Shown piece by piece: positions 1-6,795 of a stretch of DNA of 6,795 bases. Under the pieces are notes generated by a model. It did no database searches, was not told where the DNA came from, and saw nothing but the letters and a program-made list of their open reading frames with translations. The stretch is from a plasmid. The translations under genes were made by a program, and so were the position numbers. The stretch is from NCBI RefSeq assembly GCF_053078305.1, contig NZ_CP166876.1; one strand, 5' to 3'. The number at the start of each line of letters is the position of its first letter. The first letter of the stretch is position 1.

Positions 1-915
1 ATGAGCGCCGCGCTTCAATACTTCGAAGAAAATTTACCTCATCGTCCCTATCACACGGATGATCTCGCTTTCGGCCTTCGCATCTCCGGCAAAGGGCGCG
101 CTCTTCTTGCGCGCTACATCCAGCAGAACCAGCCACATGCGCAGTTCTGGCTGGTTTTTGACATTGACCGCGAGGGGGCTGCGATTGACTGGAGCGACCG
201 GAACGCTCCCGCGCCGAACATCACCGTAAAAAATCCTGTGAACGGTCATGCTCACCTGCTCTACGCGCTCAATATCGCCGTGAGAACCGCGCCGGACAGC
301 TCGGTTAAGGCGCTGAAATACGCCGCTGCGATTGAACGTTCGCTGTGTGAGAAACTTTGTGCTGATGTGAACTACAGCGGACTGATTTGCAAAAACCCGT
401 TCCACCTGGAATGGCAGGTGATGGAGTGGCGAGAGGAAGCCTATACCCTCGATGAACTGGCTGATTATCTCGATTTGAGTGCCTCAGCGCGCCGTAGCAT
501 CGATAAACATTACGGGATGGGGCGAAACTGCCACCTGTTCGAAATGACGCGCAAATGGGCTTACAGGGCGATTCGTCAGGGCTGGCCAGCATTCTCACAG
601 TGGCTTGATGCTGTGATTCAGCGTGTCGAAATGTACAACGCATCGCTTCCCGTTCCGCTTTCTCAGGCTGAATGTCGGGCTATTGGCAAGAGTATTGCGA
701 AATACACGCACAGGAACTTCACGCCGGAAACTTTCGCACAGTATGTGGCTGATACGCACACGCCAGAAATTCAGGCTACACGCGGTCGCAAGGGCGGTTC
801 TAAGTCTAAGCGCGGCACAGTAGCTACATCAGCACGCACGCTGAAACCTTGGGAGAAATTAGGGATCAGTCGCGCCTGGTATTACCAACTGAAAAAACGA
901 GGTCTCGTAGAGTAG
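1..915 (+). CDS. rep: ColE2-type plasmid replication initiator Rep (plasmid-specific primase)
   Basis: 304-aa ORF starting at window position 1. The N-terminus (MSAALQYFEENLPHRPY...QQNQPHAQFWLVFDIDREGAA...NITVKNPVNGHAHLLYAL) matches what I remember of ColE2/ColE3 Rep proteins, and its size is typical of them. A ColE2-like origin lies directly 3' of the stop codon, as in that family. Confidence 0.88.
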   Translation: MSAALQYFEENLPHRPYHTDDLAFGLRISGKGRALLARYIQQNQPHAQFWLVFDIDREGAAIDWSDRNAPAPNITVKNPVNGHAHLLYALNIAVRTAPDSSVKALKYAAAIERSLCEKLCADVNYSGLICKNPFHLEWQVMEWREEAYTLDELADYLDLSASARRSIDKHYGMGRNCHLFEMTRKWAYRAIRQGWPAFSQWLDAVIQRVEMYNASLPVPLSQAECRAIGKSIAKYTHRNFTPETFAQYVADTHTPEIQATRGRKGGSKSKRGTVATSARTLKPWEKLGISRAWYYQLKKRGLVE

Positions 916-965
916 ACCAAATAAGCCTATATCAGATAACAGCGCCTTTTTGGCGTCTTTTTGAG
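916..965 (+). other. ColE2-type replication origin (Rep binding and primer synthesis site)
   Basis: The sequence 'accaaataagcctatatcagataacagcgcctttttggcgtctttttgag' begins right after the rep stop codon. It closely resembles the ColE2/ColE3 minimal origin as I recall it (AGATAAGCC..TATCAGATAACAGCGCC), and the position immediately downstream of rep is the family arrangement. Exact boundaries are approximate. Confidence 0.6.
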
Positions 966-1038
966 CAGCTTGGTTTGTTGCTATTTCCCTCGTTGAATCC
1001 CGCAATGGCGCGGCTTTCCGCATGATTGAGGTGGTAGC

Positions 1039-1095
1039 GCTCGCCGCAGTCTCATGACCGAGCGTAGCGAGCGAATGAGCGAGGAAGCGCAAAGG
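1039..1095 (+). other. Putative single-strand initiation / primosome assembly site (ColE1/pMB1-like segment)
   Basis: The segment 'gctcgccgcagtctcatgaccgagcgtagcgagcgaatgagcgaggaagcgcaaagg' is about 75% identical, by eye, to the pMB1/pBR322 segment GCTCGCCGCAGCCGAACGACCGAGCGCAGCGAGTCAGTGAGCGAGGAAGCGGAAGAGCG. In ColE1-type plasmids that segment lies just downstream of ori in the region of the primosome assembly sites. Here it is in the same orientation and about 100 bp downstream of the ColE2-type ori. Function is inferred, not demonstrated. Confidence 0.4.
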
Positions 1096-1139
1096 TGTCG
1101 GTGGTGCATGTGGCACTTACGCGCCGGGGTTTCTCCGTT

Positions 1140-1406
1140 CTACGGTTTCGCAGGTGGTTTGGGTAGCTTCTCCAGCTCGTTAATCAGCGGTTGTATCCGG
1201 TTCACATCGGCCTGTCTTGTGACTTCCTTTCGCAGGAACTGGAGCAGGAACGCACGCAGTTGCGCCTCTTCCGGCCTCCGTACCCTCGCCAGCATGGCAG
1301 CCCCCACAATGACTTTTTGCGCCGTGTCCAGGCTCCGGCTCTTCGCCTTCAGGCGCTGTAATCTGGCCTCAGCTTCGGCAATCTTCTGTTCGAGTGTTCT
1401 GCTCAT
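1140..1406 (-). CDS. Mobilisation accessory protein, MobC-like
   Basis: 88-aa minus-strand ORF (MSRTLEQKIAEAEARLQRLKAKSRSL..KVIVGAAMLARV..) with a GGAG ribosome-binding site about 8 nt upstream of the ATG. It is divergent from the relaxase gene with the candidate oriT between them, which is the RSF1010 mobC-oriT-mobA arrangement. The basic, coiled N-terminus and the KV(I/L)VGA motif resemble RSF1010 MobC as I recall it. Confidence 0.65.
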   Translation of the reverse strand: MSRTLEQKIAEAEARLQRLKAKSRSLDTAQKVIVGAAMLARVRRPEEAQLRAFLLQFLRKEVTRQADVNRIQPLINELEKLPKPPAKP

Positions 1407-1489
1407 TTTGTGACTCCGTGCGCGGTGAAAAATCGCATTTTAGCGCGTCACTGGTAGTTGCAAAACCGAACTGGCATAATGCACGGCAC

Positions 1490-1545
1490 ATCACGAAGTG
1501 CGCACTTATACAATCTCCACTTCGTTTCGATTGTGTGCGCCCTGC
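1490..1545 (+). other. Candidate origin of transfer (oriT) with MOBQ-type nick region
   Basis: It lies in the intergenic region between the divergent mobC-like and mobA genes. It contains a perfect 12-bp palindrome 'aagtgcgcactt' (1496-1507), an inverted repeat 'acgaagtg' (1493-1500) / 'cacttcg' (1518-1524), and 'gtgcgccct' (1535-1543), which matches the RSF1010/R1162 nick region (TAAGTGCG/CCCT). The inferred nick is between 1539 and 1540. Confidence 0.5.
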
Positions 1546-1584
1546 GGGGCTGAAAGAAAACGGCAAAAAGGCATTACGGCAGAA

Positions 1585-3804
1585 ATGGCGATTTATCATC
1601 TCAGCATGAAAATCATTTCGCGAAAAAACGGCTACAGTGCCGTTGCTTCTGCTGCCTACCGTTCCGGCTCTGTCATACCCGATGACCGTACCGGATTAAC
1701 CCACGATTACACCCGTAAACGCGGCGTTGATGATGCGGTCATTCTCACCCCTGCGAATGCACCGTCCTGGTGTGGTGACCGTTCCGTTCTCTGGAATGCG
1801 GTCGAGAAAGCCGAACAGCGCCGGAACTCCCAGCTGGCAAGGGAGATTGAACTCGCCATTCCCCGTGAGATTTCCCGCGAGGCCGCACGGGAGACCGTTC
1901 TCGCTTTTGTCCGGGAAAACTTTGTCAGTCGGGGCATGATTGCCGATGTGGCGTTCCATCACATGGACCGGACCAATCCCCATGCGCACATCATGCTGAC
2001 CACGAGAGCTGTCGGGGAAACGGGATTCGCAGGAAAGGTCAGGGACTGGAACGACCGGGCACTCGCCGAGACGTGGCGCGCATCATGGGCTGACCATGCG
2101 AATAGAGCGCTTGCGAACGCCGGCTACCAGGAAGAGATAGACCATCGTTCATACGAGCGTCAGGGACTGGAGAAAGCGCCGGGCCTTCACCTCGGAAAGG
2201 CTGCCTGTGCGATGGAAAAACGGGGAATGGAAACAGAACGCGGTGAGCAGAACCGTCTGATTAACAGCCTTAACCTGGAAATACAGGTTTCCCGCACGCA
2301 GCTTGCTCTCAGGACGGTTCAGGAAGCGCAGCGTAAGCGGGAACTCAGCGATGCTGCACGTCGTGCAGCGGAAGCCCTTAACCTGACCATTCCCGCTGCG
2401 AATGCCTCAGCGGATACCCTGCGGGAATTCATTGCCACGCTGCCGCAGGAATGCGGGAACGCGTGGGAGATGACCCCGGAGTTCCTGGCGATGAGCGGGA
2501 AGGTGAACGACATCGAACGTGAGGGGAATGCGCTGCTGAAAGAGCAGGCCATTCTCGAAAAGGAGATGACCGGACTCAAAAAAGCACGCCCTGTCGCGTC
2601 CCTTCTGTCAGAGATTCCCCTGATGACATGGGCTGAACCGGAATACCGCAAAAGACAACTCCGTTTCTGGAAACTCGGGAAACAGATTGAATCTCTTCGC
2701 CGCACCTACAGGGCCGTGAAAGAACGGGACATTCCCGCCCGTCGTCAGGCCTTTGAAACGCAGTGGAATACGTGGATTGCGCCGGGAATGGCAGAGCTGA
2801 AAGAAAAACTGTCAGCACGGGAAGCGGAGCGGCGCAGGGAGGAAGCCGAAGCGGAAGCGCGCCGGAAGGAACAGGAGCATGAGGCGCGGCTGAAACGTCA
2901 TGATAACCACCGTCTGAGCCGTGAAACGGCATTAGTCGGGGTTATTACGGAGCTGGGGCGTGCCAGAGAGCCGGGAACGGGCAGGATAACCCGCTACATG
3001 ATGCTGAGTAACAGGGCCGGAGAATTCACGGTATGGGGTGATGAGCTGGCGCATTACCCCCGGAGTGTTCATGACCCGGTGAATGTTTATCTGTCGCCTG
3101 GCGGGGCTGTGATGGTCACGGATATACACGCAGGGCGGCCTGAATCTCATGAGACAATGGCGCGGCCTGAGCGTGTGAGAATGTATTCCGGTGCGACGGT
3201 CCGGCATGTACTGGAACAGATGCGCCAGGGGTGGCCCTCTTACGGTTTTCCGGCGCTGCCGCATCACTGGCCGGATAATTTTTATTTCAGCAACGACCGC
3301 AGGCCCGTAGCCTCTCCGCTACCGTCAGCGCACCGGGTGGATATCACCGCTGATGCGGCACCGGAACAACTCATGCCTGTTGTATTTTCGAGAGAGGGAA
3401 ACAGCAGGACGCTGAATCTGTTGTTGTGCAAAGGGCCGGAGGAAATGCTTGTCGGGTTTGTTCGCCGGGAAGGAGGGTTTTGCCCCGTTCTTGTGCTTCC
3501 GTCGCCGGATTACAGTCATCTGATGGTCAGCACCATCACGGAGAACGGGGTATGCCTGGCAGGTTACGGAGAAGCTATAAACCATGATGAGGATACTCCG
3601 TACCCACCGGAACCGCACCTGATGCAGTTCCGGCTCAAAGGCCATCATGACAGGCTTTTGGCTGCTGTCCACAAACCGGAAGAGATGCCGGATTATCTCT
3701 TCCGTCAACTCGGTTTTAATCAGACCTGGCATGAGTGGAAGCGGGACGAACAGCACAGGCAACAACAACGCCGCCCCGGGCACTTCCGGGGCATGAGTAT
3801 GTGA
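1585..3804 (+). CDS. mobA: Mobilisation relaxase, MobA/MobL family (MOBQ-like), with long C-terminal extension
   Basis: The N-terminus MAIYHLSMKIISRKNGYSAVASAAYRSG is the conserved MobA/MobL start, with a tyrosine at residue 25 (codon 1657-1659), the same position as the catalytic Tyr25 of RSF1010 MobA. A histidine-triad motif HHMDRTNPHAHIM sits around 1957-1995. The start is set at the in-frame ATG at 1585; the six-frame ORF begins at 1498 but that upstream stretch overlaps the oriT and lacks the family N-terminus. About 440 residues follow the relaxase domain. Confidence 0.88.
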   Translation: MAIYHLSMKIISRKNGYSAVASAAYRSGSVIPDDRTGLTHDYTRKRGVDDAVILTPANAPSWCGDRSVLWNAVEKAEQRRNSQLAREIELAIPREISREAARETVLAFVRENFVSRGMIADVAFHHMDRTNPHAHIMLTTRAVGETGFAGKVRDWNDRALAETWRASWADHANRALANAGYQEEIDHRSYERQGLEKAPGLHLGKAACAMEKRGMETERGEQNRLINSLNLEIQVSRTQLALRTVQEAQRKRELSDAARRAAEALNLTIPAANASADTLREFIATLPQECGNAWEMTPEFLAMSGKVNDIEREGNALLKEQAILEKEMTGLKKARPVASLLSEIPLMTWAEPEYRKRQLRFWKLGKQIESLRRTYRAVKERDIPARRQAFETQWNTWIAPGMAELKEKLSAREAERRREEAEAEARRKEQEHEARLKRHDNHRLSRETALVGVITELGRAREPGTGRITRYMMLSNRAGEFTVWGDELAHYPRSVHDPVNVYLSPGGAVMVTDIHAGRPESHETMARPERVRMYSGATVRHVLEQMRQGWPSYGFPALPHHWPDNFYFSNDRRPVASPLPSAHRVDITADAAPEQLMPVVFSREGNSRTLNLLLCKGPEEMLVGFVRREGGFCPVLVLPSPDYSHLMVSTITENGVCLAGYGEAINHDEDTPYPPEPHLMQFRLKGHHDRLLAAVHKPEEMPDYLFRQLGFNQTWHEWKRDEQHRQQQRRPGHFRGMSM

Positions 3805-3842
3805 TATCCGGGGCTGCACCTCGGACCCCGCCAACACATCAC

Positions 3843-3866
3843 GGGCCACAAAATTTTTTGTGGCCC
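3843..3866. terminator. GC-rich hairpin downstream of mobA (possible terminator)
   Basis: Palindrome 'gggccac aaaatttttt gtggccc' has a 7-bp GC-rich stem with an A/T loop, located 39 bp after the mobA stop. There is no clean T-run after the stem, so terminator function is uncertain. Confidence 0.35.
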
Positions 3867-3923
3867 GCTCTGCGTTTTCTAAGTGTTATCCCTCCTGATT
3901 TCTAAAAAATTTTCCACCTGAAC

Positions 3924-3952
3924 TTGACAGAAAAAACGATGACGGGTACTTT
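3924..3952 (+). promoter_or_regulatory. Putative colicin promoter (-35 TTGACA; -10 region uncertain)
   Basis: A perfect -35 hexamer 'ttgaca' at 3924-3929 lies upstream of the LexA boxes and about 110 bp upstream of the colicin ATG. The best -10 candidate about 17 bp downstream ('tacttt', 3947-3952) is weak, so exact promoter elements are uncertain. Confidence 0.5.
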
Positions 3953-3957
3953 TTGAT

Positions 3958-3988
3958 CTGTACATAAAACCAGTGGTTTTATGTACAG
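3958..3988 (+). promoter_or_regulatory. Overlapping dual LexA (SOS) boxes of a colicin operon
   Basis: The sequence 'ctgtacataaaaccagtggttttatgtacag' contains a first box CTGTACATAAAACCAG (3958-3973) and a second box overlapping its last base and ending in ACAG at 3988. This is the characteristic tandem overlapping SOS operator found upstream of colicin genes (CTGT-N8-ACAG type). Confidence 0.9.
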
Positions 3989-4036
3989 TATTAATCATGT
4001 AATTAATTGTTTTAACGCTTAAAAGAGGGAATTTTT

Positions 4037-5707
4037 ATGAGCGGTGGCGATGGACGCGGCCATAACACGGGCGCGCATAGCACAAGTGGTAACATTAATG
4101 GTGGCCCGACCGGGCTTGGTGTAGGTGGTGGTGCTTCTGATGGCTCCGGATGGAGTTCGGAAAATAACCCGTGGGGTGGTGGTTCCGGTAGCGGCATTCA
4201 CTGGGGTGGTGGTTCCGGTCATGGTAATGGCGGGGGGAATGGTAATTCCGGTGGTGGTTCGGGAACAGGCGGTAATCTGTCAGCAGTAGCTGCGCCAGTG
4301 GCATTTGGTTTTCCGGCACTTTCCACTCCAGGAGCTGGCGGTCTGGCGGTCAGTATTTCAGCGGGAGCATTATCGGCAGCTATTGCTGATATTATGGCTG
4401 CCCTGAAAGGACCGTTTAAATTTGGTCTTTGGGGGGTGGCTTTATATGGTGTATTGCCATCACAAATAGCGAAAGATGACCCCAATATGATGTCAAAGAT
4501 TGTGACGTCATTACCCGCAGATGATATTACTGAATCACCTGTCAGTTCATTACCTCTCGATAAGGCAACAGTAAACGTAAATGTTCGTGTTGTTGATGAT
4601 GTAAAAGACGAACGACAGAATATTTCGGTTGTTTCAGGTGTTCCGATGAGTGTTCCGGTGGTTGATGCAAAACCTACCGAACGTCCAGGTGTTTTTACGG
4701 CATCAATTCCAGGTGCACCTGTTCTGAATATTTCAGTTAATAACAGTACGCCAGCAGTACAGACATTAAGCCCAGGTGTTACAAATAATACTGATAAGGA
4801 TGTTCGCCCGGCAGGATTTACTCAGGGGGGTAATACCAGGGATGCAGTTATTCGATTCCCGAAGGACAGCGGTCATAATGCCGTATATGTTTCAGTGAGT
4901 GATGTTCTTAGCCCTGACCAGGTAAAACAACGTCAGGATGAAGAAAATCGCCGTCAGCAGGAATGGGATGCTACGCATCCGGTTGAAGCGGCTGAGCGAA
5001 ATTATGAACGCGCGCGTGCAGAGCTGAATCAGGCAAATGAAGATGTTGCCAGAAATCAGGAGCGACAGGCTAAAGCTGTTCAGGTTTATAATTCGCGTAA
5101 AAGCGAACTTGATGCAGCGAATAAAACTCTTGCTGATGCAATAGCTGAAATAAAACAATTTGAACGATTTGCACATGACCCAATGGCTGGCGGTCACAGA
5201 ATGTGGCAAATGGCCGGGCTTAAAGCTCAGCGGGCGCAGACGGATGTAAATAATAAGCAGGCTGCATTTGATGCTGCTGCAAAAGAGAAGGCAGATGCTG
5301 ATGCTGCATTAAGTACTGCGATGGAAAGCAGGAAGAAGAAAGAGGATAATAAAAGAGATGCTGAAGGCAAACTAAATGATGAGTTAGCAAAAAATAAAGG
5401 AAAGATACCAGGTCTAAAAATAGATCAGAAAATTAGGGGACAAATGCCAGAAAGAGGATGGACAGAGGATGATATCAAAAATACCGTATCTAACGGTGCA
5501 ACTGGTACATCTTTTGATAAGCGTAGTCCGAAGAAAACACCTCCAGACTATTTAGGTCGAAATGATCCAGCAACAGTGTATGGTTCTCCTGGTAAATATG
5601 TTGTTGTCAATGATCGTACTGGTGAGGTTACTCAGATTAGTGATAAGACAGATCCGGGTTGGGTGGACGATTCGAGAATTCAATGGGGAAATAAAAATGA
5701 CCAATAA
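4037..5707 (+). CDS. cea: E-group colicin (BtuB/Tol-dependent); C-terminal cytotoxic domain most consistent with E5-type anticodon tRNase
   Basis: 556-aa ORF with an AGAGGG ribosome-binding site upstream. The glycine-rich N-terminal translocation domain carries the TolB box DGSGW at residues 35-39 (nt 4139-4153), as in colicins E2/E3/E9. The central region is the long coiled-coil receptor-binding domain typical of E colicins. The C-terminal ~105 residues (KIPGLKIDQKIRGQMPERGW...WGNKNDQ) have no HNH motif and no histidine, which argues against the E2/E7/E8/E9 DNases; I do not recognise it as the E3 rRNase either, and it fits my recollection of the histidine-free E5 tRNase domain. It is preceded by the SOS operator and followed by immunity and lysis genes. 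Confidence 0.93.
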   Translation: MSGGDGRGHNTGAHSTSGNINGGPTGLGVGGGASDGSGWSSENNPWGGGSGSGIHWGGGSGHGNGGGNGNSGGGSGTGGNLSAVAAPVAFGFPALSTPGAGGLAVSISAGALSAAIADIMAALKGPFKFGLWGVALYGVLPSQIAKDDPNMMSKIVTSLPADDITESPVSSLPLDKATVNVNVRVVDDVKDERQNISVVSGVPMSVPVVDAKPTERPGVFTASIPGAPVLNISVNNSTPAVQTLSPGVTNNTDKDVRPAGFTQGGNTRDAVIRFPKDSGHNAVYVSVSDVLSPDQVKQRQDEENRRQQEWDATHPVEAAERNYERARAELNQANEDVARNQERQAKAVQVYNSRKSELDAANKTLADAIAEIKQFERFAHDPMAGGHRMWQMAGLKAQRAQTDVNNKQAAFDAAAKEKADADAALSTAMESRKKKEDNKRDAEGKLNDELAKNKGKIPGLKIDQKIRGQMPERGWTEDDIKNTVSNGATGTSFDKRSPKKTPPDYLGRNDPATVYGSPGKYVVVNDRTGEVTQISDKTDPGWVDDSRIQWGNKNDQ

Positions 5708-6026
5708 ATTATTTGAACATACGGTGTTATATGATAGTGGTGATGCCTTTTTTGAATTAAAAGGAAATGCTTCTATGAAGTTATCACCAAAAGCTGCAAT
5801 AGAAGTTTGTAATGAAGCAGCGAAAAAAGGCTTATGGATTTTGGGCATTGATGGTGGGCATTGGCTGAATCCTGGATTCAGGATAGATAGTTCAGCATCA
5901 TGGACATATGATATGCCGGAGGAATACAAATCAAAAATCCCTGAAAATAATAGATTGGCTATTGAAAATATTAAAGATGATATTGAGAATGGATACACTG
6001 CTTTCATTATCACGTTAAAGATGTAA
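5697..6026 (+). CDS. Colicin immunity protein (cognate inhibitor of the C-terminal nuclease domain)
   Basis: 109-aa ORF (MTNKLFEHTVLYDSGDAFFELKGN...) whose ATG at 5697 overlaps the colicin stop codon (5705-5707), the typical translationally coupled position of nuclease-colicin immunity genes. The six-frame ORF begins at 5562, but that extension lies wholly inside the colicin reading frame and is rejected. The gene is AT-rich like the cytotoxic domain. Confidence 0.85.
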   Translation: MTNKLFEHTVLYDSGDAFFELKGNASMKLSPKAAIEVCNEAAKKGLWILGIDGGHWLNPGFRIDSSASWTYDMPEEYKSKIPENNRLAIENIKDDIENGYTAFIITLKM

Positions 6027-6123
6027 ATAGTGTTATAGAATTTTATGTTTCATGGATGATTTCAACCTTTGGATTTCAGGTTTTTATGGATGAATGCCTG
6101 AGTCCATATATACAAGGAACAGT

Positions 6124-6267
6124 ATGAAAAAAATAACATGGATTATTTTATTGCTTCTTGCAGCCATTATTCTTGCTGCATGTCAGGCAAACTATATCCG
6201 CGATGTTCAGGGCGGGACTGTATCCCCGTCATCCTCAGCTGAACTGACCGGATTAGCAACGCAGTAA
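6124..6267 (+). CDS. Colicin lysis / release lipoprotein (bacteriocin release protein)
   Basis: Translation by hand gives the 47-aa protein [47 protein letters not shown], with a lipoprotein signal peptide and lipobox LAAC. It is nearly identical to the E-group colicin lysis proteins as I recall them. It is absent from the ORF track because it is short. A ribosome-binding site 'aaggaa' lies upstream. Confidence 0.9.
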
Positions 6268-6294
6268 CCCGAAATCCTCTTTGACAAGAACAAA

Positions 6295-6327
6295 GCGTGT
6301 CAGGCTGATTCTGACGCGCTTTTTTTT
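6295..6327 (+). terminator. Rho-independent terminator of the colicin operon
   Basis: A 9-bp stem 'gcgtgtcag' (6295-6303) pairs with 'ctgacgcgc' (6311-6319), with one G-U pair and a 7-nt loop, and is followed by a run of 8 T (6320-6327). It lies 28 bp after the lysis gene stop. Confidence 0.8.
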
Positions 6328-6463
6328 GAAGTGTCACAAAAATTCCATGTGGGAGATGGGATCTAAAATCCCCGTGCAGAACTTTCCATCCAGGGGGAGA
6401 AAACTTGTCGTTTTGAGCCGTTCGGTGTTCAGAACGCACGAAACCGATCGTGCATCGCTTTCG

Positions 6464-6477
6464 TGCATAGTTATGCA
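6464..6477. promoter_or_regulatory. ARG-box-like palindrome (candidate ArgR accessory site of the cer-like locus)
   Basis: Palindrome 'tgcatagttatgca' resembles the ARG box half-sites (TGAAT/ATTCA with a symmetric A-to-C change) and is centred about 120 bp upstream of the XerCD core, close to the spacing in ColE1 cer. A direct repeat 'tcgtgcat' (6448-6455 and 6461-6468) flanks it. Confidence 0.35.
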
Positions 6478-6578
6478 ACGCGCTAAAAACGATTCTGACG
6501 CATTTTTTATGTTTACCCTGGTGTTTCCTTGTCTTTTTGTTTTTTTTGCGTCAGAAAGCGATTGAGGGTGTTTTAAGG

Positions 6579-6606
6579 GGTGCGTACAACGGGAGTTATG
6601 GTAAAT
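6579..6606 (+). other. XerC/XerD site-specific recombination core (cer-like multimer resolution site)
   Basis: The sequence 'ggtgcgtacaa cgggag ttatggtaaat' has a XerC arm identical to ColE1 cer (GGTGCGTACAA), a 6-bp central region (cer has 8 bp) and a XerD arm TTATGGTAAAT identical to cer. About 180 bp of upstream accessory sequence (about 6400-6578) includes the ARG-box-like palindrome. Confidence 0.8.
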
Positions 6607-6619
6607 GGATCGGGTTTTG

Positions 6620-6795
6620 GGGAATAATCGACAGGGTTTGCCGTTGGGTGTAGTGTAAGCGACTGAAAAACAAACGCCCCGTAAATCGTGCTCTCACCGC
6701 CAAGATTGATCACGAAATTACAGGGCGCCGGGTTCCGCGTCTCCCGATGGGAAAGCGCGGTTAGTTAAACTGTGTACCGAGAGGAATCGTAACAC
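6620..6795 (+). promoter_or_regulatory. Presumed rep leader / copy-number control region (rep promoter, antisense-RNA target), continuing into rep at position 1 if the molecule is circular
   Basis: A ribosome-binding site 'gagagg' (6778-6783) sits about 12 nt before the window end, positioned for the rep ATG at 1 across the circular junction. An imperfect stem-loop 'ccgcgtctccc gat gggaaagcgcgg' is at about 6757-6780. A candidate sigma70 promoter has -35 'tcgaca' (6628-6633) and -10 'tagtgt' (6651-6656). ColE2-type replicons control Rep translation with an antisense RNA against this leader; the exact RNA ends cannot be set from sequence. Confidence 0.35.

What the first reader, a model, noticed from the sequence alone, without database searches (positions are those of the whole stretch)
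5380..6026. Histidine-free C-terminal cytotoxic domain plus a 109-aa immunity protein: probable E5-type anticodon tRNase pair
The T and R domains are classic E-group, but the last ~105 residues have no HNH motif and no histidine at all, and are followed by an immunity gene larger than the ~85-aa DNase/rRNase immunity proteins I remember. This matches my recollection of the colicin E5 tRNase, which cleaves the anticodon of Tyr/His/Asn/Asp tRNAs and lacks catalytic histidines. If instead it is a divergent domain, it would be a new killing module on a standard E-colicin chassis.
Basis: partly seen in the sequence, partly recalled or inferred. Interest (0 to 1): 0.55.

Follow-up and report, generated by a model that had tools for sequence, protein, structure and literature searches.

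The report
Colicin E5 tRNase and immunity gene
This stretch encodes the killing domain of colicin E5, a well-studied bacterial toxin that cuts the anticodons of four tRNAs, and its 109-residue immunity protein, both identical to crystallised proteins, so it is correctly identified but ordinary.

Summary
The observation and the interpretation are both right, and the object is already known. Window 4037-5707 (+) encodes a 556-aa colicin. Its last 109 residues are 100% identical to the crystallised colicin E5 C-terminal ribonuclease domain (PDB 2dfx, 2djh, 3ao9). The ORF at 5697-6026 is 100% identical over all 109 residues to the crystallised ImmE5 (2fhz_A). Pfam gives Colicin_E5 at residues 460-547 and ImmE5 at 27-107. 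There is no histidine after residue 387 and no HNH pattern. The published catalytic residues K25, R33 and K60 are present as K465, R473 and K500 (PMC1669751). Residues 1-426 are identical to colicin E2. DNA identity to a ColE2 plasmid stops at 5314 and resumes at 6079, bracketing a low-GC cassette (36% against 53%) that holds the toxin domain and the immunity gene. The window is a complete 6795-bp mobilizable ColE2-type plasmid, 99.2-99.5% identical to plasmids of E. coli O111. Novelty: none. Interest: low.

The parts
3924..3952 (+). Putative sigma-70 promoter of the colicin operon: TTGACA at 3924-3929, 17-nt spacer, TACTTT at 3947-3952
   Evidence: Read directly. The -10 hexamer is too weak for the consensus scan to list it. 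Its position just upstream of the LexA operator fits SOS-regulated colicin promoters (own knowledge). Inferred, not shown.
3958..3988 (.). 31-nt near-perfect palindrome CTGTACATAAAACCAGTGGTTTTATGTACAG, read as two overlapping LexA (SOS) boxes
   Evidence: CTGT-N8-CCAG match at 3958, sequence. The dual overlapping SOS boxes of E-group colicin operons are own knowledge.
4037..5707 (+). Colicin E5 structural gene, 556 aa plus stop. GAGGG Shine-Dalgarno at 4024-4028.
   Evidence: ORF. Pfam Cloacin 30-311, Pyocin_S 175-285, E2R135 314-447, Colicin_E5 460-547. PMC1669751 states that colicin E5 is taken to be 556 aa.
4037..5314 (+). Shared E-group chassis: translocation domain and receptor-binding coiled coil (residues 1-426), identical in protein to colicin E2
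   Evidence: Protein alignment 426/426 identical. DNA 98.8% identical to the ColE2 plasmid NZ_CP122820.1 over window 1-5314.
5315..6078 (+). E5-specific swapped cassette (end of the R domain, CRD, immE5 and its 3' flank). GC is 36% against 53% for the rest of the plasmid.
   Evidence: blastn identity to the ColE2 plasmid ends at 5314 and resumes at 6079. GC values.
5360..5704 (+). E5-CRD, the 115-aa C-terminal ribonuclease domain (residues 442-556), histidine-free. Catalytic K465 (5429-5431), R473 (5453-5455), K500 (5534-5536). Base-recognition W542 and D545-R547.
   Evidence: 100% identity to 2dfx_E, 2djh, 3ao9_A and 2a8k_A over the part queried. Residue mapping. Residue roles from PMC1669751 and PMC9990079.
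5697..6026 (+). immE5, 109 aa plus stop, overlapping the colicin stop by 11 nt
   Evidence: 100% identity over 1-109 to 2fhz_A. Pfam ImmE5 27-107. The phosphate- and base-mimicking residues D51, F60 and D94 (paper numbering, which is the 109-aa position minus 1) are present.
6124..6267 (+). Colicin release (lysis) lipoprotein gene, 47 aa, [20 protein letters not shown]... with a lipobox
   Evidence: ORF. The equivalent CDS is annotated 'colicin release lysis protein' in NZ_AP019765.1.
6292..6322 (+). Intrinsic-terminator-like hairpin (13 pairs) followed by a T run, at the end of the operon

Best explanation
The region is the 3' part of the colicin E5 operon on a small mobilizable ColE2-type plasmid.

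The 556-aa colicin has the standard E-group translocation and BtuB-binding coiled-coil domains. Its 115-residue C-terminal domain is the colicin E5 tRNase. After import into a sensitive E. coli cell, this domain cleaves tRNA-Tyr, -His, -Asn and -Asp between queuosine-34 and U35 of the anticodon. Cleavage leaves a 2',3'-cyclic phosphate and a 5'-OH and stops translation. The reaction needs no metal and no histidine: Arg33 and Lys25 (here R473 and K465), with Lys60 (K500), do the catalysis. W102 and D105-R107 read the G/Q-U dinucleotide in a codon-like way.

The overlapping downstream gene makes ImmE5 (109 aa). ImmE5 binds the domain in the producer cell and blocks the active site by mimicking the anticodon loop: Asp51 and Asp94 stand in for the phosphates and Phe60 for the guanine base.

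Expression is presumably SOS-induced from a LexA-controlled promoter at 3924-3988. Release depends on the lysis lipoprotein encoded at 6124-6267.

Shown here: sequence identity, domain architecture, presence of the functional residues, operon layout and module boundaries. Taken from the literature on identical proteins: the enzymology and the inhibition mechanism. Inferred: SOS control and the use of this promoter.
For: - E5-CRD: 109/109 identical to PDB chains 2dfx_E, 2djh and 3ao9_A, E = 1.5e-71.
- ImmE5: 109/109 identical to 2fhz_A, E = 9.3e-73.
- Pfam: Colicin_E5 4.3e-33, ImmE5 7.2e-26, Cloacin 2.9e-102, E2R135 1.2e-06.
- Functional residues K465, R473, K500, W542, D545-R547 are present. 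ImmE5 D51, F60, D94 are present.
- There is no His after residue 387.
- Residues 1-426 are identical to colicin E2. The cassette boundaries lie at 5314 and 6079.
- The same 647 bp occurs at 99% identity or more in 30 PLSDB plasmids of E. coli and Shigella.
- The window is 99.2-99.5% identical over its full length to 6795-bp E. coli O111 plasmids.
- Mechanism: PMC1635277 (Q34-U35 cleavage, cyclic phosphate), PMC1669751 (structures, K25/R33/K60, ImmE5 mimicry, EDTA-resistant), PMC9990079 citing Inoue-Ito 2012 (R33 and K25 as acid-base pair).
- LexA box and terminator.
Against: - Nothing found argues against the identification.
- No activity was measured for this plasmid.
- The promoter's -10 hexamer is weak and was not picked up by the consensus scan.
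- NCBIfam has no model matching the colicin, the immunity protein or the lysis protein. RefSeq names them generically or wrongly. That reflects the annotation resources, not the biology.
Confidence: 0.98

Rival explanations
1. A divergent, previously undescribed killing module grafted onto an E-colicin chassis.
For: Only the absence of HNH and His, and the unusually long immunity protein.
Against: 100% identity to crystallised E5-CRD and ImmE5. Pfam Colicin_E5 and ImmE5 hits.
Confidence: 0
2. A DNase (HNH, E2/E7/E8/E9 type) or 16S rRNase (E3/E4/E6 type) colicin with a degenerate C-terminus.
For: The chassis (residues 1-426) is identical to colicin E2, and the plasmid backbone is shared with ColE2, ColE9 and ColE3-like plasmids.
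Against: The alignment to colicin E2 collapses after residue 426, with 3-6 identities per 30 columns. There is no HNH pattern. Pfam reported no DNase or rRNase domain.
Confidence: 0
3. An inactive remnant: a truncated E5 toxin fragment kept only because the linked immE5 gives immunity, as on ColE9-type plasmids and large conjugative plasmids.
For: Such remnants exist. In NZ_CP075654.1 an 86-aa ORF keeps only the last 72 residues of colicin E5 (S485 to Q556 by my count from the sequence), next to an immE5 with the same RefSeq protein accession as in NZ_AP019765.1, and a lysis gene. ColE9-type records also list a 'colicin E5-related ribonuclease' (H11).
Against: Here the colicin ORF is full length (556 aa) and uninterrupted. 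It has T, R and complete CRD domains and all catalytic residues. It also has its own promoter and LexA operator region.
Confidence: 0.01

Closest known systems
Colicin E5 / ImmE5 of pColE5-099 (PDB 2dfx, 2fhz, 2djh, 2a8k, 3ao9, 3vj7; Pfam PF12106 and PF11480)
   Same: Identical sequence for CRD residues 448-556 and for all 109 residues of ImmE5. Same assumed total length of 556 aa. Same operon order: colicin, immunity, lysis.
   Different: No difference was detected in the toxin or immunity module. The plasmid backbone could not be compared with the prototype pColE5-099 sequence, which was not retrieved as such. The nearest records are E. coli O111 and Shigella sonnei plasmids.
Colicin E2 (HNH DNase) on ColE2-type plasmids, e.g. 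NZ_CP122820.1
   Same: Residues 1-426 (T and R domains) are identical. The plasmid backbone is 98.8% identical over window 1-5314 and 92.6% over 6079-6725. The rep, mobQ and lysis genes are shared.
   Different: The C-terminal domain and the immunity gene are unrelated: an HNH DNase with an 86-aa Im2-type protein, against a His-free tRNase with the 109-aa ImmE5.
Colicin D tRNase (Pfam PF11429; same Pfam clan CL0640, BECR fold)
   Same: Both are metal-independent anticodon-loop tRNases delivered as colicin C-terminal domains and neutralised by a cognate immunity protein (PMC9990079).
   Different: Colicin D cleaves tRNA-Arg between positions 38 and 39 and uses a catalytic His (His611). Pfam gave no Colicin_D hit here. 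Its chassis is also different (FepA/TonB-dependent; own knowledge).
E5-like toxin domains elsewhere: pyocin S4, CdiA-CT of Burkholderia pseudomallei K96243 and E478
   Same: [quoted passage not shown]
   Different: They use different delivery systems (pyocin chassis, type V CDI) and have divergent sequences. The window's domain is the E. coli prototype itself.

Membership tests
Colicin E5 tRNase domain (Pfam PF12106) | Significant sequence match to E5-CRD | tested here: met
   109/109 identity to 2dfx_E and 3ao9_A. Pfam Colicin_E5, E = 4.3e-33, model positions 3-88 of 88.
Colicin E5 tRNase domain (Pfam PF12106) | Catalytic basic residues Lys25 and Arg33 (plus Lys60) and no histidine | tested here: met
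   K465, R473 and K500 are present. There is no His after residue 387. Residue roles from PMC1669751 and PMC9990079.
Colicin E5 tRNase domain (Pfam PF12106) | G/Q-U recognition residues Trp102 and Asp105-Arg107 | tested here: met
   W542, D545, S546 and R547 are present. Roles from PMC1669751.
Colicin E5 tRNase domain (Pfam PF12106) | Cleavage of tRNA-Tyr/His/Asn/Asp between Q34 and U35, giving a 2',3'-cyclic phosphate | not testable with these tools
   Shown experimentally for the identical domain (PMC1635277). Not measured for this plasmid.
ImmE5 (Pfam PF11480) | Sequence match to ImmE5, encoded immediately downstream of the toxin gene | tested here: met
   109/109 identity to 2fhz_A. Pfam ImmE5, E = 7.2e-26. 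The gene overlaps the colicin 3' end by 11 nt.
ImmE5 (Pfam PF11480) | Anticodon-mimicking residues Asp51, Phe60 and Asp94 | tested here: met
   Present at positions 52, 61 and 95 of the 109-aa ORF, which is the paper numbering plus 1. Roles from PMC1669751.
E-group (BtuB/Tol-dependent) nuclease colicin operon | E-type translocation domain and coiled-coil receptor-binding domain | tested here: met
   Pfam Cloacin 30-311 and E2R135 314-447. Residues 1-426 are identical to colicin E2.
E-group (BtuB/Tol-dependent) nuclease colicin operon | SOS (LexA) operator upstream, and a lysis gene downstream of the immunity gene | tested here: met
   CTGT-N8-CCAG box within a 31-nt palindrome at 3958-3988. 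47-aa lysis lipoprotein ORF at 6124-6267. LexA binding itself was not tested.
HNH DNase colicins (E2/E7/E8/E9) | HNH (His-Me finger) motif in the C-terminal domain, with an Im-type immunity protein of about 85 aa | tested here: not met
   No His after residue 387 and no H..N..H pattern. No DNase Pfam hit. The immunity protein is 109 aa and ImmE5 family.
rRNase colicins (E3/E4/E6, cloacin DF13) | Colicin E3-type cytotoxic ribonuclease domain | tested here: not met
   The only Pfam hit in the C-terminal region is Colicin_E5. The 'Cloacin' hit covers residues 30-311, which is the T domain and not the nuclease.
Colicin D tRNase (PF11429) | Colicin_D domain with a catalytic histidine | tested here: not met
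   No Colicin_D hit and no His in the domain. PMC9990079 places it in the same Pfam clan (CL0640) as Colicin_E5.

The most novel reading that the evidence does not exclude
The toxin and immunity module is identical to the textbook proteins, so novelty can only lie outside it. This particular 6795-bp plasmid is not identical to any record in the collections searched (best 99.5%). It carries short clustered patches of divergence in mobQ, which may record recombination between ColE-type backbones. Nothing suggests a new function.
Probability: 0.03. Interest if true: 0.1.

Novelty: already known. Interest (0 to 1): 0.04.

Why it matters
It matters little as a discovery. Colicin E5 was shown to be an anticodon nuclease in 1999. 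The structures of its catalytic domain with substrate analogue and with ImmE5 were published in 2005-2006 and deposited in the PDB, and the catalytic residues were assigned in 2012. The result is useful as a calibration: a reader working from raw sequence recognised the module correctly from the lack of His and HNH and from the length of the immunity protein. It also flags that current RefSeq product names for this operon ('colicin transporter' for ImmE5, 'colicin-like bacteriocin tRNase domain-containing protein' for the colicin) would not lead an annotator to the right answer.

Tried and rejected
- An Rfam scan of the whole window at gathering thresholds gave no match. No curated RNA family was detected, including any antisense RNA for rep.
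- NCBIfam gave no family for the colicin, ImmE5, the lysis protein, Rep or the 87-aa ORF. Only MobQ matched. The first attempt failed on a one-base coordinate error for the lysis gene.
- The consensus promoter scan did not list the promoter upstream of the colicin gene, and its promoter count was not above the shuffle expectation (8 found, 6.1 expected). The promoter call therefore rests on direct reading and on the LexA palindrome.
- Structure prediction, fold search and the large protein database searches were deliberately not run. 100% identity to solved structures made them uninformative.
- I considered the 154-aa mechanical ORF (5562-6026) as an alternative immunity start, and the 153-aa antisense ORF (5552-6013). 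Both were rejected: the 109-aa form equals the crystallised protein, and the antisense ORF lies in 34-39% GC DNA with no family support.
- I considered that the toxin might be a dead remnant like those on large plasmids. This was rejected because the ORF is full length and has all catalytic residues.

Full report
**Observation**

The window holds a 556-aa ORF at 4037-5707 (+).
- Its histidines are at residues 9, 14, 55, 62, 280, 314, 380 and 387, so the last 169 residues are His-free.
- No H..N..H pattern occurs after residue 420.
- An ATG at 5697, preceded by GGGG, opens a 109-aa ORF that ends at 6026 and overlaps the colicin's 3' end by 11 nt.

Two qualifications apply.
- The absence of His is not improbable in itself. 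P is about 0.19 for 115 residues at this protein's own His content and about 0.07 at 2.3% His.
- The stated start (5380, residue 448) lies 7 residues inside the experimentally defined 115-aa domain (residues 442-556).

**Identity**

Residues 448-556 are 109/109 identical to the PDB colicin E5 chains 2dfx_E, 2djh and 3ao9_A (E = 1.5e-71). Chains 3vj7_A and 2a8k_A match almost as strongly. The 109-aa ORF is 109/109 identical to ImmE5 chain 2fhz_A (E = 9.3e-73), and residues 4-109 match 2dfx_I.

Pfam hits on the colicin:

| Family | Accession | Residues |
|---|---|---|
| Cloacin | PF03515 | 30-311 |
| Pyocin_S | PF06958 | 175-285 |
| E2R135 | PF11570 | 314-447 |
| Colicin_E5 | PF12106 | 460-547 |

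On the immunity protein, Pfam gives ImmE5 (PF11480) at 27-107. No DNase, rRNase or colicin D family was reported.

**Module boundaries**

I aligned the colicin with colicin E2 from plasmid NZ_CP122820.1.
- It is identical over residues 1-426 and then unrelated.
- At the DNA level, identity is 98.8% over window 1-5314, is lost from 5315 to 6078, and resumes at 92.6% over 6079-6725.
- The swapped cassette has 36% GC against 53% for the rest of the plasmid.

This is the familiar modular exchange of cytotoxic domain plus immunity gene on a constant E-group chassis.

**Context**

The window is a complete circular plasmid that starts at the rep ATG.
- It has the same length (6795 bp) as pO111-110512_4 (NZ_AP019765.1) and differs from it at 54 positions. 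Most of them are clustered in mobQ, and none lies in 5315-6078.
- The best record in the E. coli genome set is NZ_CP077534.1 (O111:H8), at 99.5%.
- Genes: rep (1-915), an 88-aa ORF on the minus strand (1140-1406), mobQ (1585-3804), colicin E5, immE5 and the lysis gene (6124-6267).
- Upstream of the colicin gene are TTGACA (3924-3929), TACTTT (3947-3952) and a 31-nt palindrome at 3958-3988 that contains a CTGT-N8-CCAG LexA-type box.
- A 13-pair hairpin with a T run follows the lysis gene at 6292-6322.

**Mechanism (from work on identical proteins)**

- Colicin E5 cleaves tRNA-Tyr, -His, -Asn and -Asp between Q34 and U35, giving a 2',3'-cyclic phosphate and a 5'-OH. GpUp is the minimal substrate (PMC1635277).
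- The activity lies entirely in the 115-aa CRD. The reaction is EDTA-resistant and involves no histidine.
- Lys25, Arg33 and Lys60 are essential. Trp102 and Asp105-Arg107 read the bases in a codon-like way.
- ImmE5 blocks the site by mimicking the anticodon loop, with Asp51 and Asp94 as the phosphates and Phe60 as the guanine (PMC1669751).
- A later study assigned Arg33 and Lys25 as the acid-base pair (Inoue-Ito 2012, as cited in PMC9990079).
- All these residues are present here: K465, R473, K500, W542, D545-R547, and ImmE5 positions 52, 61 and 95 of the 109-aa ORF.
- PMC1669751 also states that colicin E5 is taken to be 556 aa, which matches this ORF.

**Verdict**

The alternative, a new killing module, is excluded. 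This is colicin E5 with ImmE5: already known and of low interest.

**Side observations**

- RefSeq calls ImmE5 a 'colicin transporter'. It names the colicin after the Pfam Cloacin family, whose 'tRNase' description actually sits on the translocation domain.
- NCBIfam has no model for these proteins.
- The Pfam ImmE5 model begins at residue 27, at the internal Met, although the crystallised protein includes residues 1-26.
- Of the 33 PLSDB records that match the 647-bp region, 18 are conjugative plasmids. In every large record listed there, the match begins only at query position 105-108.
- In the one large plasmid examined, an 86-aa ORF keeps only the last 72 residues of colicin E5 (S485 to Q556 by my count). 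It therefore lacks K465 and R473. It sits beside an intact immE5 and a lysis gene, so it is probably an immunity-only remnant.

Noticed in passing
window 5697-6026 and 4037-5707; NZ_AP019765.1 (L001) 4637-4966 and 2977-4647: RefSeq product names are misleading. ImmE5 (WP_000182536.1) is called 'colicin transporter'. Colicin E5 is called 'colicin-like bacteriocin tRNase domain-containing protein', a name taken from Pfam Cloacin (PF03515), which here covers residues 30-311 (the translocation domain, not the nuclease). NCBIfam has no model that matches the colicin, ImmE5, the lysis protein or Rep.
   Followed up: partly
L002 (NZ_CP075654.1) 5961-6778; other large plasmids (H36-H55): Large conjugative plasmids (IncK2/Z and others) match the finding only from window position ~5484-5487 onward. 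In L002 an 86-aa ORF keeps only the last 72 residues of colicin E5 (S485 to Q556 by my count), so it lacks the catalytic K465 and R473. It is followed by an immE5 with the same protein accession and a lysis gene. This is probably an immunity-conferring remnant. The upstream junction sequence is unrelated to colicin.
   Followed up: partly
window 2298-2337, 2440-2457, 3118-3141 (within mobQ 1585-3804): The 54 differences from the nearest same-length plasmid (NZ_AP019765.1) are not spread evenly. Most fall in three short dense patches inside mobQ and give 15 amino-acid changes. This looks like small recombination or gene-conversion tracts between ColE-type backbones rather than point mutation.
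   Followed up: partly
window 5315-6078: The E5-specific cassette has 36% GC (immE5 34%) against 53% for the rest of the plasmid. This suggests the toxin and immunity module came from a lower-GC source than the chassis.
   Followed up: partly
window 5697-5774 (ImmE5 residues 1-26): The Pfam ImmE5 model (82 positions) starts at residue 27, the internal Met at nt 5775, which also has an upstream AAGGAAA. The crystallised protein 2fhz_A includes residues 1-26. The family model seems to reflect a shorter gene call. Which start is used in vivo was not examined.
   Followed up: no
window 5552-6013 (-): A 153-aa antisense ORF spans almost the whole immE5 gene. I did not submit it to any family search and take it as a by-product of the AT-rich sequence, not a gene.
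   Followed up: no
window 6307-6317, 6491-6501 and 6548-6556: GATTCTGACGC followed by a T run occurs twice (6307 and 6491). The second copy's TTCTGACGC pairs with GCGTCAGAA at 6548-6556 (9-bp inverted repeat, 46-nt spacer). These lie in the non-coding stretch between the lysis gene and rep. They may be terminators or replication-control elements. Rfam found nothing.
   Followed up: no
window 1140-1406 (-): An 88-aa ORF upstream of mobQ and divergent from it is annotated 'hypothetical protein' in RefSeq (WP_000091750.1). In GenBank records CP057532.1 and CP057552.1 the matched region includes a CDS called 'mobilization protein', which may be this ORF. It had no NCBIfam hit. It is probably a relaxosome accessory protein.
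   Followed up: no
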